IMG/VR virus record: IMGVR_UViG_3300011888_000020
DNA length: 5,872 bases
Strand: one strand, 5' to 3'
DNA from: a virus
Lineage: Duplodnaviria > Heunggongvirae > Uroviricota > Caudoviricetes
Positions 1 through 5,872 of the stretch are shown piece after piece (positions within the stretch are counted from its first letter, which is position 1; every line of letters starts with the position of its first letter). Below the pieces are notes generated by a model. It saw only the letters and a list, made by a program, of their open reading frames with translations, was not told the origin of the DNA and did no database searches. The position numbers and the translations under genes were made by a program.

Positions 1-3
1 CCC

Positions 4-57
4 TTACTTGTTCAGGTTGTATTGTTCTTTCTTTGTAATTTGTTGATTTTCTTGCAT
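4..57 (-). other. Short ttcA-like 5' coding fragment at the prophage left junction (17 codons, MQENQQITKKEQYNLNK, then TAA at 4-6)
   Basis: Minus-strand ATG at 57-55 translates to MQENQQITKKEQYNLNK, which I recognise as the N-terminus of E. coli TtcA, the gene Rac is known to integrate into. The frame hits TAA at 6-4 instead of continuing. Too short and too close to the window edge to call a gene. Confidence 0.3.
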
Positions 58-108
58 TATTTCAGTTCTCTGGTACTAAATGGGGCAAATTGGGGGCAAA
101 CTTTGCAA

Positions 109-1639: not shown

Positions 1640-1849
1640 TTAATTTGAATACAATGCAATTCTCGAGGACTGAAGTTTCTCGCAATTAAAATTTATCAGT
1701 TTTACTTTCTGCTCTCTGGAAACGCCTGCTTCTTTTTTACCTGAGAGCATTTTTTCGCATTCTGATTTCGTTAGTTTAGATTTTGAATATCTTGTCCAGT
1801 TAGTAGAAGTGCCACCTTCCTTTTCAATAGTGGCGGTAATTTTATACAT
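1640..1849 (-). CDS. ydaC: Rac prophage small protein YdaC, function unknown, 69 aa
   Basis: ATG at 1849-1847 is preceded by a strong GGAGG (minus strand, rc of 1851-1860) with a 5-nt spacer. The track's 93-aa version starts at ATG 1921 with no Shine-Dalgarno and overlaps ralR. MYKITATIEKEGG... matches my memory of YdaC. Confidence 0.78.
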   Translation of the reverse strand: MYKITATIEKEGGTSTNWTRYSKSKLTKSECEKMLSGKKEAGVSREQKVKLINFNCEKLQSSRIALYSN

Positions 1850-2092: not shown

Positions 2093-2902
2093 TTATTCCT
2101 CTGAATTATCGATTACACTGTATTCCCCGGTTAATACAGAGGAATCTGCAGGATCGATTGTCAGTGGTTCCTTTTCATCCATTGATACTGCACGCTGGAT
2201 CTCAATTGATACGGGCAGATATTTGAACAGGCGACGAATAGCCGTTTTCTTTGCCATTTCTTCCCAGTGAGTTACCCACGGCCCGTTATTACCAGCTTTA
2301 CTCAGGCTGCGCACCAGCTCAATCTGTTTGCGCGTCATAACTTCAAACTGAGTACCTCCGTCTTTCAGTCTTGCGACAGCATAGACGTGGGTAACCGGGG
2401 CATCTTCGTTTTCTCCCGGGCGGTGTATTAACTTTTCATCAAGGCCAAATTCGAAGCTAAACTCGTCACCTTCACGGACAACACGGGCTGACAGGCTGGC
2501 GATTTGACCAGAACGGCGAGCCAGATCAATCATGCCGCGATAGCCAATGATTAGCTGAACGTTCTTTTTACCGCTCTTTTCGTTTTTATTACCAAAAGGC
2601 AGTAAATATGCATGACCGAGGGCGCTACCTGGCTCAAGTCCGAGCTGTGAACACTGTACGATCGCACTGACAAAACTCATAGTGTCACAGTTTCCTAACG
2701 CCGGAACTTTACGAATTTCTGTGGTGGCGATACGGATCATACGTTCAGCCGTCATATGGCGTGGAAGAGCTGCTGCCAGTTGCTCTTTCATTGATGGCTG
2801 GTTAATAAAACTAATCACGTCGCTATTTTTAACTGCTGCTGGTGCACGGTTTCCCTGAGTTTTTTGCAGATCGGCTTTTGCGATTGGTGGTTGCTTAGTC
2901 AT
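2093..2902 (-). CDS. recT: RecT single-strand annealing protein (RecT/Red-beta family), 269 aa
   Basis: ATG at 2902-2900 is preceded by AAGGA with an 8-nt spacer. The track's 288-aa ORF starts at a CTG at 2959. The stop is TAA at 2095-2093. [24 protein letters not shown]... matches my memory of K-12 RecT. The recE stop overlaps recT codons 2-3. Confidence 0.95.
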
Positions 2903-5445
2903 TTGCATATTCCTTAGCCCAGCGGGGCAGTGATAATGTCTTAATAGCTGGCCATTCATCGGTATTCAGGCAGTCAGACAGGGTTCGCAGATTGCGGTGA
3001 TATTCCTGTTGACCTGCCAGTTTTGCTTCTTCGCCCATCATGAAAATTTCAACCGGATAACGTCCGCATTCAATAGTTGTGCTGGCAACCAGAAAAACGA
3101 AAGTTGGCTGCACTCCAAACTGTGCTTCATAACCGTCACTGTAGAATGCATCCTGAACGTGATAGCGGTAGTCGTAATAAGCGGTTTNNNNNNNNNNACG
3201 GCCATGATCCAGTGAAATTCAGGGATAATTTTGTCCGGACGGCACCGACACAAAATTCCTGTTTCAGGATCTTCCCAGTAAATTGATGATTCAGCGTGTC
3301 CGGCGCTTTCAACAAGCCATTGCCCCAGCGGCAAAGCCATAACGCTTTGATACATGAGTTCAATTTTCCGGCCTTCTTCCGCAGTGATAACCGTTTTTCC
3401 TGTGCTTGCGCATTCCATCAGAAACGCTTTCTCTTCTTCTTTTCCGGCGTTTGTACGGCGGTTAAATTCAGGTGCTACGATAAAGCGGTTACTGAATTCT
3501 TCCTGTTCAAGTACCCGGCAGTGGAAAGCAGTTCCTAAATCGAGCGTTTTTGTCTTTGTGGTGTCCACGGGGGCATTTTTACGCCACAAATATAGTGCCG
3601 GAGTATCAGCAATGTCATCGAGCTGAGACTTACTGATACCGGGACCCGCGTGGTAATTCTCATTCGAAATTCCGTAATAAATACCTGGCTCTATGTCTTC
3701 TACGATTACGGGATCTGCGACTTCGCCAGTTTCATCACTGCAATCGCGATGCGGATCGCTGCCAGCATTCTCATTGTGCGGATGTTCAGCGCCTTCCATT
3801 TCCTCCGGATCATTTTCCTTAGCTTCAACCTGACTCTCTTCATCACCGCACCACAGTCAGGGCAGTTATCCCCGCCAGTCTGGCCGCAGGCATTGCAGGC
3901 TATTTCCGGTTCCTGTTGCACTACTGGCTCAGGTTGATTCATATCCGGGCTGGTTTTTTCCGTTTCTGGCTGGTTCTGGTACACACAATCGCGAGTCTGG
4001 ATCCCCTTTACCCATTTCGGATCGTTCGGGTCGCTAATTCCGTCAACAAATTCACCACGTGATGCAGCAAGCAATTTATCGGCATCGACAGGATTTTTTG
4101 ATGGAATGTTTTTCCGGGCTTCATGGAGTTCTGCCCGCAGTTCCTGATATTTCGCATCAACAGAATTTACCTGTGACTGAGCATCCAGCGGCTGCGTGTC
4201 CTGATGATGTTCAGTTGCGTCCTGTTCCATTGTTTCAGCCTCTCCCTGTTCAACTGCCGTTGTTCCAGATGGTTGCGGTTTTTCTTCATCATCCTGTTTT
4301 CCTTCTTCTGTTACTCGCTGCGGCATCGGGGCAGAGGAGCGACCGCAGGCAATATCCACGATTTCCGGATCAGGGTTGGCATGATCGGTTTCAGTCAGTA
4401 CTTTGTTCAGATATTCAGTGACGTGCGCGGGGATGACCTCGATCCCAATTGGTGCTTCTTTTACGGACGCAACCACGATGGCGCGGGAATAATCCAGCCC
4501 GCCAGGCATGGTGATGAATTTGTCGCGGAAAACAGAAAAGGGCGGTTTATTTTCAGCGATAATTTCCTCAATGCGTTTAGCGTGTGCCGGATGAAGGTTA
4601 TAGATGTCCAGATCCATTGAACGGGCCAGTACGCCAGTGGCTACGTCGCGCGCCAGTGACGTCAGATCGTGTACGAAACCTTCGCCGCGATCGGTGAGGC
4701 TTCCGCCGCCAGCATTAGCACCGGAAGCCGTGCGAGTGATGTGTGAAACACGATTACCCTTCATCCACTCTTTTGTCAGCAGTCCTCGATCGGTGTAGTC
4801 AGCGTTCAGGTATGCTTCGAAAAAAGCAGTTATCAGTCCCAGGTTTGAATTACCAGGATTAGGGAAAACTTTGTCAGTGTCACGAACCAGTTTGTGGAGT
4901 TCGCGAATTTCCAGCGGGTCGAGCAGGCTGGTTTTGTGGGAAACAGCCAGGGCAGTAACAGCCGGTAGTTCTTCAGCCCGAGCAATGTGTAATGCCTGGA
5001 GTCCGTCGCGTGAAACGTGCGTTACCGGTTTTTCGCTGCCGTGTTGAGCAAGCCAACGAATGGGCAGTTCCTGGCCAGAAATTGGGAGTAGCATATTCTC
5101 CTCAATCTCAGTCATGTCTTCGCCGTTGACGTTGGTATTGCCTTGATAGTGAGCGTTGTCTGGTGCTGCTCCCGGTTTTAGTTCCCATGTCATGGAGTCT
5201 TTGCTGAGTTGATAGCGTTCACTCCAGGTAAAATCGATCTCACCTTCAGCGGGCAGGTCATTAACGACAGGAAAATTCGTGGCAACAGCTTTAAAATAGC
5301 TGCTCAGTTTTTTACCTGACTTAACGATCAGGTAGTCCAGAGTGGCACAGGTCGATTCAAAATCGTTGCTTGCCCACAGGACGACGTCAGGTTCACCGGA
5401 TGATTTTTTCGCTTTCCGTAACAGGAAGAGTGGTTTTGTGCTCAT
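2895..5445 (-). pseudogene. recE: recE (exonuclease VIII), disrupted in this sequence by a frameshift after codon 535 and an N-run in the nuclease domain
   Basis: Three minus-strand ORFs in three different frames each match contiguous parts of RecE: 5445-3706 (residues 1-535 plus a 44-aa out-of-frame tail), 3799-3198 (MEGAEHP...[14 protein letters not shown]) and 3187-2895 ([29 protein letters not shown]...KEYAND). The start ATG at 5445-5443 has GAGG upstream. The stop TAA at 2897-2895 overlaps the recT start. Confidence 0.88.
3188..3197. other. Run of 10 N (assembly gap or masked bases) inside the recE nuclease domain
   Basis: Directly visible in the sequence. It sits between the third base of the Val codon at 3199-3197 and the first base of the Lys codon at 3188-3186. 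The recE frame differs on the two sides, so the N count does not equal the true length. Confidence 0.95.
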
Positions 5446-5546: not shown

Positions 5547-5822
5547 TCAGATTTCACCTTTTAATTTCATTGCAATTAGAGTTGCCAGAAATTCGGCTTT
5601 TTTTTCTGTGGGCAGATTCTTTCCGATATGCACCAGGCACATTTTTTTGACACCTTCATCAAGTGTTTTTACGTTGCCTGATGGACCATCGATATCAACC
5701 ACAGTGAATGGGGTTTCTTTATTTTCTGTTTTAATTACGTAGCCAATGCGCTTTCCTTCCAGATTCACCTCGTGAACAATGTCATCGGTAGTTACAACAG
5801 TGGCTTCATAATTGGTAATCAT
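5547..5822 (-). CDS. racC: Rac prophage protein RacC, function unknown, 91 aa
   Basis: ATG at 5822-5820 is preceded by AAGGAG with a 6-nt spacer; the stop is TGA at 5549-5547. MITNYEATVVTTDDIVHEV... matches my memory of RacC. The start overlaps the upstream ORF's stop as ATGA. Confidence 0.85.
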   Translation of the reverse strand: MITNYEATVVTTDDIVHEVNLEGKRIGYVIKTENKETPFTVVDIDGPSGNVKTLDEGVKKMCLVHIGKNLPTEKKAEFLATLIAMKLKGEI

Positions 5823-5872
5823 GTTTTCTCCTTTATTAAGGTTGAGGGAATACCTGCCATTTTCTGCATAAA
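5819..5872 (-). CDS. 3' end of an upstream ORF running off the right edge (probably the Rac ydaE-equivalent, by position)
   Basis: An open minus-strand frame from the window edge ends ...FMQKMAGIPSTLIKEKT with TGA at 5821-5819, overlapping the racC ATG. Only 17 codons are visible. The ydaE assignment is by synteny only. Confidence 0.4.
   Translation of the reverse strand, partial: FMQKMAGIPSTLIKEKT

What the first reader, a model, noticed from the sequence alone, without database searches (positions are those of the whole stretch)
3186..3205. N-run masks the catalytic Lys region of RecE and the adjacent catalytic Asp759 codon reads Ala
The PD-(D/E)XK nuclease motif reads [15 protein letters not shown]-[N gap] on the minus strand. 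By the published numbering the residue after HWIM is the catalytic Asp759 and Lys761 follows Val760. Here codon 759 is GCC (Ala; plus strand GGC at 3200-3202, a single-base difference from GAC). The 10 N then replace what should be about 29 nt covering Lys761 through Phe769. This is either low-quality sequence at a contig end or a nuclease-dead allele.
Basis: partly seen in the sequence, partly recalled or inferred. Interest (0 to 1): 0.45.

Follow-up and report, generated by a model that had tools for sequence, protein, structure and literature searches.

The report
Assembly gap inside Rac recE gene
A run of ten N's is an ordinary assembly gap that removes 29 bases from the active site of the well-known prophage exonuclease gene recE, and the "Asp-to-Ala" change three bases from the gap edge is most likely a sequencing error, not a nuclease-dead variant.

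Summary
The window is the int-to-racC arm of the E. coli Rac prophage, on the minus strand. Ten N's at 3188-3197 replace exactly 29 nt of recE, from the last base of Val760 to the first base of Lys770. Codon 759 reads GCC (plus strand GGC, 3200-3202) instead of GAC.

Asp748, Asp759, Lys761 and His652 are invariant in 120 of 120 homologues, so the change would hit an essential PD-(D/E)XK residue if it were real.

It is probably not real:
- GCC at 759 occurs in 0 of about 1,550 complete E. coli genomes; 1,536 carry the exact GAC 63-mer.
- GCC is absent from three large contig collections.
- It lies 3 nt from a contig edge.
- One window end also has four private differences within 40 nt.
- The 3,180 nt on the other side of the gap are 100% identical to strain H10, which has GAC and VKTTADIQRFK.

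The frame change across the N-run is a by-product of writing 10 N for 29 nt.

As written, the gene is broken whatever codon 759 reads.

Best reading: a scaffold gap plus an edge miscall in a low-quality draft. Low interest.

The parts
3188..3197 (.). Run of 10 N: an assembly or scaffold gap that stands for 29 nt of recE (third base of Val760 to first base of Lys770, including catalytic Lys761).
   Evidence: L001 positions 5335-5363 (29 nt) have no counterpart in the window, and the flanks align up to both gap edges.
3200..3202 (-). Codon 759 of recE reads GCC (Ala) instead of GAC (Asp). The differing base is plus-strand 3201 (G instead of T), 3 nt from the gap edge.
   Evidence: 0 of 1552 complete E. 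coli genomes match the GCC 63-mer exactly, against 1536 for the GAC 63-mer. The position is invariant Asp in 120/120 homologues.
2895..5445 (-). recE (exodeoxyribonuclease VIII) of the Rac prophage. As written it is broken into three frames by a 31-nt deletion and by the 10-N gap. The nuclease domain (residues 606-866) lies at about 2895-3660.
   Evidence: 99.9% identity to annotated recE; PF06630 and PF12684; PDB 3H4R, E = 5.6e-103.
3841..3844 (-). Junction (GATG) of a private 31-nt deletion after codon 535 of recE. The deleted sequence is GGCGACGCAACATACCAGGAAACATTCGATG, between two GATG direct repeats. The deletion shifts the frame, and the ORF 3706..5445 (579 aa) ends prematurely.
   Evidence: The junction is absent from 1397 complete E. 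coli genomes that match its flank and from genome, metagenome and viral contig collections.
5833..5867 (.). Cluster of private differences at the window end, upstream of racC: CCAGA written as CAGAA, one G>C and one T>A. This shows that the sequence quality drops at a contig end.
   Evidence: The best of 1541 genomes still differs at 4 of 100 positions.
2093..2902 (-). recT, intact and 100% identical to strain H10. It overlaps the recE stop by 8 nt.

Best explanation
The window is a short scaffold from a draft or low-coverage assembly of an E. coli Rac prophage (ttcA/att, intR, xisR, rcbA, ralR/RalA, recT, recE, racC). The 10-N run is a scaffolding gap of conventional minimum length placed between two contigs that are really 29 nt apart. 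It hides Lys761 and its neighbours and creates an apparent frameshift only because 10 is not 29. The GCC at codon 759 lies in the last four bases of the upstream contig, where consensus rests on the fewest reads and the poorest read ends. It is most likely a single-base miscall of GAC. The underlying gene most likely has the ordinary D759-V-K761 active site. Shown: the gap geometry, the uniqueness of GCC, the invariance of Asp759, and the error cluster at one window end. Inferred: that the source is low coverage, and that the A>C change is an error and not a mutation.
For: (1) Geometry: both flanks of the N-run align collinearly to recE of strain H10, with exactly 29 reference bases missing. 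The 3,180 nt downstream are 100% identical to H10, whose recE has GAC and VKTTADIQRFK. (2) Uniqueness: the GCC-containing 63-mer matches 0 of 1552 complete E. coli genomes exactly; all sit at one or more mismatches. The GAC version matches 1536 exactly. The 23-mer GAATTTCACTGGATCATGGCCGT is absent from GTDB genome contigs, JGI metagenome contigs and IMG/VR. (3) Position: the mismatch is 3 nt from the contig edge. (4) The same sequence has four more private differences within 40 nt of its 5872 end. About 5-6 of 7-8 private events therefore fall in the 3.4% of the sequence that lies within 50 nt of a contig end (binomial about 4e-8 for the first count; the events are not independent, and that count was revised). 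(5) Asp759 is invariant in 120/120 homologues down to 53% identity, so a natural Ala there is unexpected a priori.
Against: No reads or quality values are available, so the error cannot be shown directly. The window also has private changes far from any contig end: N249S at 4700 and the 31-nt deletion. The source may therefore be a truly divergent, decaying recE in which a real D759A would be unremarkable. The contig edge on the other side of the gap, and the window end at position 1, are error-free.
Confidence: 0.8

Rival explanations
1. Real nuclease-dead allele. The source strain truly carries recE D759A, a substitution of a metal-binding PD-(D/E)XK carboxylate that would abolish exonuclease VIII activity. 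It would have arisen by neutral decay of a silent, already frameshifted cryptic-prophage gene. The N-run is still just an assembly gap.
For: The base is written as an unambiguous C. The same recE has other private changes away from contig ends: the 31-nt frameshifting deletion at codon 535 and N249S. These would be consistent with relaxed selection on a pseudogene. From general knowledge, not tested here: recE in Rac is normally not expressed without sbcA mutations.
Against: GCC is found in no other sequence in any collection searched. It sits 3 nt from a gap edge, which a random private SNP would do with a probability of roughly 0.1-0.3%. Asp759 is invariant in 120/120 homologues.
Confidence: 0.13
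2. The gap hides a structural change and not 29 ordinary bases. For example, an insertion sequence or other repeat inserted in recE with loss of 29 nt, which broke the assembly and was bridged with a 10-N gap of unknown length. The 'GCC' would then be the first bases of the foreign junction.
For: Repeats are a common cause of contig breaks, and a 10-N run is often a placeholder and not a measured length (general knowledge). The window ends at an att-type repeat, which shows that repeats did break this assembly.
Against: After the single mismatch, the next three bases (CGT) again match the reference. That is expected for a substitution and has about a 1/64 chance for foreign sequence. A simple insertion would leave the two flanks abutting or duplicated, not 29 nt apart. 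No IS-like bases are visible at either edge.
Confidence: 0.05
3. The N-run is a deliberate mask applied to the sequence by a database or pipeline, not an assembler gap.
For: One of the collections used here states that a few stretches are masked as N (tool description).
Against: A mask normally preserves length, but here 10 N replace 29 nt. The 29 nt are unremarkable coding sequence present in more than 1,500 public genomes.
Confidence: 0.02

Closest known systems
RecE (exodeoxyribonuclease VIII) of the E. coli Rac prophage; nuclease-domain structure PDB 3H4R
   Same: 99.9% nucleotide identity over the whole gene to annotated recE in many complete genomes. The residues upstream of the gap match 3H4R chain A almost residue for residue (E = 5.6e-103). 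The domain architecture is the same (PF06630 plus PF12684). The gene order intR-xisR-rcbA-ralR-recT-recE-racC is the same.
   Different: As written, the window copy has Ala at 759, lacks residues 761-769 (hidden by N), has a 31-nt deletion after codon 535, and has N249S. None of these is seen in any complete E. coli genome searched.
Scaffold gaps and contig-end miscalls in draft assemblies
   Same: A fixed-length 10-N run does not equal the true distance. The flanks are perfectly collinear with a reference. A lone mismatch lies within 4 nt of the edge. A further cluster of private differences lies at one scaffold end.
   Different: The assembler and read data are unknown, so the class is inferred from the pattern and not demonstrated.
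Engineered active-site mutants of lambda-Exo/RecE-type PD-(D/E)XK exonucleases (for example lambda Exo K131A, used for crystallography; PMC11611040)
   Same: D759A would be the same kind of lesion: loss of a conserved catalytic side chain in the (D/E)XK motif.
   Different: The window has native chromosomal prophage context (att, int, ralR/RalA), not a vector. There is no evidence of engineering.

Membership tests
RecE / exodeoxyribonuclease VIII (Rac prophage) | Near-identical full-length sequence and synteny with recT in a Rac prophage | tested here: met
   100% coverage at 99.9% identity to annotated recE and recT; the gene neighbourhood; collinear alignment.
RecE / exodeoxyribonuclease VIII (Rac prophage) | N-terminal Exonuc_VIII domain (PF06630) plus C-terminal PDDEXK-like nuclease domain (PF12684) | tested here: met
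   the reference protein hits both families. The window fragments on both sides of the gap hit PF12684 (E = 2.1e-12 and 2.6e-07).
PD-(D/E)XK nuclease superfamily (active enzyme) | Complete catalytic motif: Asp748 ... Asp759-x-Lys761 (plus His652 in RecE) | tested here: not met
   As written, 759 is Ala and 761 is hidden by N. His652 and Asp748 are present. All four residues are invariant in 120/120 homologues. The failure is most likely an artefact of the sequence and not of the gene.
PD-(D/E)XK nuclease superfamily (active enzyme) | Uninterrupted open reading frame | tested here: not met
   A 31-nt deletion shifts the frame after codon 535. The 10-N/29-nt mismatch shifts it again.
Assembly gap / contig-end error | Flanks collinear with a reference, and N-run length unrelated to the true distance | tested here: met
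   29 nt missing, 10 N written.
Assembly gap / contig-end error | Low read depth or low base quality at the disputed base | not testable with these tools
   No reads or qualities are available, and the source contig could not be found in any collection.

The most novel reading that the evidence does not exclude
A natural Rac-prophage recE allele with the catalytic Asp759 replaced by Ala: a nuclease-dead RecE fixed in a wild E. coli lineage, together with a 31-nt frameshifting deletion. It would document stepwise inactivation of the RecET recombination module in a cryptic prophage.
Probability: 0.12. Interest if true: 0.2.

Novelty: not a real feature. Interest (0 to 1): 0.07.

Why it matters
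It matters little biologically. RecE and its PD-(D/E)XK active site are well characterised, and decay of cryptic-prophage genes is commonplace. The practical value is as a caution. Taken at face value, this sequence would be annotated as a recE pseudogene with a dead active site. The evidence instead points to a scaffold gap of arbitrary length and an edge miscall. If D759A were real, it would be one more lesion in a gene that is already frameshifted as written.

Tried and rejected
(1) I tried to find the source contig or any second copy of the lesions.
- An exact look-up of the truncated 579-aa RecE product found nothing.
- Exact scans for the deletion junction found nothing in genome, metagenome or viral contigs.
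- Exact scans for the GCC 23-mer found nothing in the same three collections.
- A whole-window search of the phage collection gave a best identity of 98.5%.
- A whole-window search of the plasmid collection gave no full-length match.
The source therefore remains unidentified.

(2) I first counted the unaligned 7 nt at window position 1-7 as a contig-end error. I rejected that. The first 80 nt match APEC O1 and other genomes 80/80, next to an integrase remnant, so this is a real alternative att flank.

(3) I first counted the A5-to-A4 homopolymer change near the 5872 end as private. It is shared with strain E89, so it is a polymorphism.

(4) I tried to read the RecE structure paper (PMC2688778) for the published roles of Asp759 and Lys761, but it is not held. 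I substituted a conservation test and a review (PMC11611040).

(5) I considered an IS insertion hidden in the gap and deliberate masking. Both fit the geometry poorly; see the rival explanations.

Full report
**1. What is in the window**

The 5,872-nt window contains a single non-ACGT run, 10 N at 3188-3197. A megablast search of the recE region against 5,426 complete E. coli genomes gives 99.9% identity and full coverage to annotated recE and recT.

The closest record, strain H10 (L001), shows the Rac prophage order ttcA-intR-xisR-rcbA-ralR-recT-recE-(racC-like ORF)-ydaE-kilR. All window genes lie on the minus strand:

| Gene | Window coordinates |
|---|---|
| intR | 109-1344 |
| xisR | 1346-1561 |
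| rcbA | 1640-1849 |
| ralR | 1842-2036 |
| recT | 2093-2902 |
| recE | 2895-5445 |
| racC | 5547-5822 |

Rfam finds the RalA antitoxin sRNA at 1665-1843 on the plus strand.

**2. Check of the observation**

The minus strand reads ...[18 protein letters not shown] followed by the N-run. In the H10 RecE protein (866 aa), HWIM is 755-758, so the next residue is 759.

The pairwise alignment shows one mismatch in the 647 nt upstream of the gap. ATGGACGT in the reference is ATGGCCGT in the window, which makes GAC (Asp) into GCC (Ala). On the plus strand this is 3201 T to G.

The reference bases with no counterpart are GAAAACTACGGCGGATATTCAACGATTCA, 29 nt. They comprise the third base of Val760, Lys761 to Phe769, and the first base of Lys770.

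Because 10 N replace 29 nt, the frames on the two sides differ. Frame 0 ends ...HWIMAVXXX, and frame 2 continues [11 protein letters not shown]...KEYAND*. That apparent frameshift is purely an effect of the gap length.

**3. Is residue 759 really catalytic?**

- The region is the PDDEXK-like domain PF12684.
- It matches the solved RecE nuclease domain 3H4R almost residue for residue (E = 5.6e-103).
- A review of these exonucleases states that RecE and lambda Exo share the PD-(D/E)XK active site, with His-652 replacing Glu-85 of lambda Exo (PMC11611040).
- I could not read the primary structure paper, so I tested conservation instead. In 120 homologues returned by a search of 5.8 billion proteins, down to 53% identity, Asp748, Asp759 and Lys761 are each 120/120 and His652 is 119/119.

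Ala at 759 would therefore remove an invariant active-site carboxylate. By analogy with other PD-(D/E)XK enzymes it should abolish nuclease activity; that step is inference.

**4. Is the Ala codon real?**

| Test | Result |
|---|---|
| 63-mer centred on the codon, with GCC, against complete E. coli genomes | 0 of 1,552 matching genomes at 99% or more; the listed best hits are 62/63 |
| Same 63-mer with GAC | 1,536 genomes match exactly |
| 23-mer ending ...ATGGCCGT in GTDB genome contigs | absent |
| Same 23-mer in JGI metagenome contigs | absent |
| Same 23-mer in IMG/VR viral contigs | absent |

The change is private to this sequence, and it lies 3 nt from a contig edge.

The window shows the same behaviour at its 5872 end. 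Within 40 nt of the end there are four differences that no complete genome shares: CCAGA written as CAGAA, a G>C and a T>A.

By contrast, the 3,180 nt from the other gap edge to position 8 are 100% identical to H10.

A first count put 6 of 8 private events within 50 nt of a contig end, which is 3.4% of the sequence (binomial about 4e-8). After two corrections the count is 5 of 7:
- The 7-nt tail at position 1-7 is real sequence.
- One homopolymer difference is a shared polymorphism.

The clustering is still very strong, although the events are not independent. This pattern is what low-depth, low-quality contig ends look like.

**5.

The same recE carries a 31-nt deletion after codon 535. GGCGACGCAACATACCAGGAAACATTCGATG is lost between two GATG repeats, with the junction at plus 3841-3844. 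It shifts the frame, and the ORF 3706-5445 ends after 44 out-of-frame codons.

- No complete E. coli genome has this junction; 0 of 1,397 genomes that match the flank cover it.
- Genome, metagenome and viral contig collections do not have it either.
- A further private substitution, AAC>AGC (N249S) at plus 4700, is also absent from 1,659 genomes.

These interior private changes cut both ways. They may be additional assembly or sequencing defects of a poor draft. A missing stretch of about 30 nt occurs twice, once closed and once left as N. Alternatively, they may be real lesions in a decaying gene. In the second case a real D759A would be less surprising, and also less meaningful, because the full-length protein could not be made anyway.

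**6. Mechanistic reading**

*Most likely (about 0.8).* The window is a short two-contig scaffold from a draft or low-coverage assembly.
- One end stops 7 nt beyond the att-type repeat next to int. The 80-nt end sequence occurs about twice per genome, and occurs 80/80 in APEC O1 beside an integrase remnant.
- The 10 N are a placeholder gap. As far as I recall, several assemblers and archive conventions use 10 N as the minimum gap; this is my own knowledge and was not tested.
- The true distance is 29 nt, and the A>C at the fourth base from the edge is a miscall.
- The underlying gene then has the ordinary D759-V-K761 motif, as in the genome that is identical over the adjacent 3.2 kb.

*Rivals.*
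- A real D759A in a pseudogenising recE (about 0.13).
- A hidden insertion or rearrangement in the gap (about 0.05). This is disfavoured because the three bases after the mismatch return to the reference, and because the flanks are 29 nt apart and do not abut.
- Deliberate masking (about 0.02). This is disfavoured because length is not preserved.

**7. Comparison with the known, and novelty**

The locus is a member of the RecE / exodeoxyribonuclease VIII family by sequence, domain content and synteny, all tested and met. As written it fails the tests for an active PD-(D/E)XK enzyme, with an incomplete motif and a broken frame. Those failures are most plausibly properties of the record and not of the organism.

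Nothing here departs from known biology. The finding is best classified as not a real feature, that is, a sequence artefact in a well-known gene. The residual novel reading, a natural nuclease-dead RecE allele, has roughly 0.12 probability. It would be of modest interest even if true, given the upstream frameshift and the normally silent state of recE in Rac (general knowledge).

**8. What would settle it**

Read-level support at plus 3201, or PCR and Sanger sequencing across 3100-3300 and across 3750-3950 for the deletion.

Noticed in passing
window 3841-3844 (minus strand, recE codon 535): Private 31-nt deletion between two GATG direct repeats. It frameshifts recE, and the ORF 3706-5445 ends after 44 out-of-frame codons. 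It is absent from about 1,400 complete E. coli genomes and from the genome, metagenome and viral contig collections. It could be a real slippage deletion or a mis-closed assembly gap. Its size (31 nt) is close to the 29 nt hidden by the N-run.
   Followed up: partly
window 4700 (minus strand, recE codon 249): AAC>AGC (Asn249Ser), a substitution found in none of 1,659 complete E. coli genomes that carry this segment. It is far from any contig end, so it is either a real lineage-specific SNP or an interior error.
   Followed up: partly
window 1-80: The last 7 nt beyond the int-proximal att region (plus CCCTTAC) do not match the ttcA flank of strain H10. The whole 80 nt matches APEC O1 and others 80/80, next to an integrase remnant upstream of an omptin gene. 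The segment occurs about twice per genome. This suggests the contig ends at an att-type repeat, and that this Rac-like element has a different flank from the canonical ttcA site.
   Followed up: partly
window 5833-5867: Four private differences within 40 nt of the window end, upstream of racC (CCAGA>CAGAA, G>C, T>A). A fifth difference from H10 (A5>A4 before the racC ATG) is a shared polymorphism, also present in strain E89.
   Followed up: yes
window 1665-1843 (+): RalA antitoxin sRNA (Rfam RF02694, 224 bits, full length), antisense to rcbA/ralR. This is the type I toxin-antitoxin pair RalR/RalA of Rac, and it is intact here.
   Followed up: no
window 3038-3799 (minus strand): Downstream of the 31-nt deletion, an internal ATG (Met560 of RecE) opens a frame that contains the whole nuclease domain. 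From memory, N-terminally truncated RecE fragments starting near residue 588-602 are active in recombineering. If the deletion is real, a nuclease-domain-only product is conceivable but unsupported.
   Followed up: no
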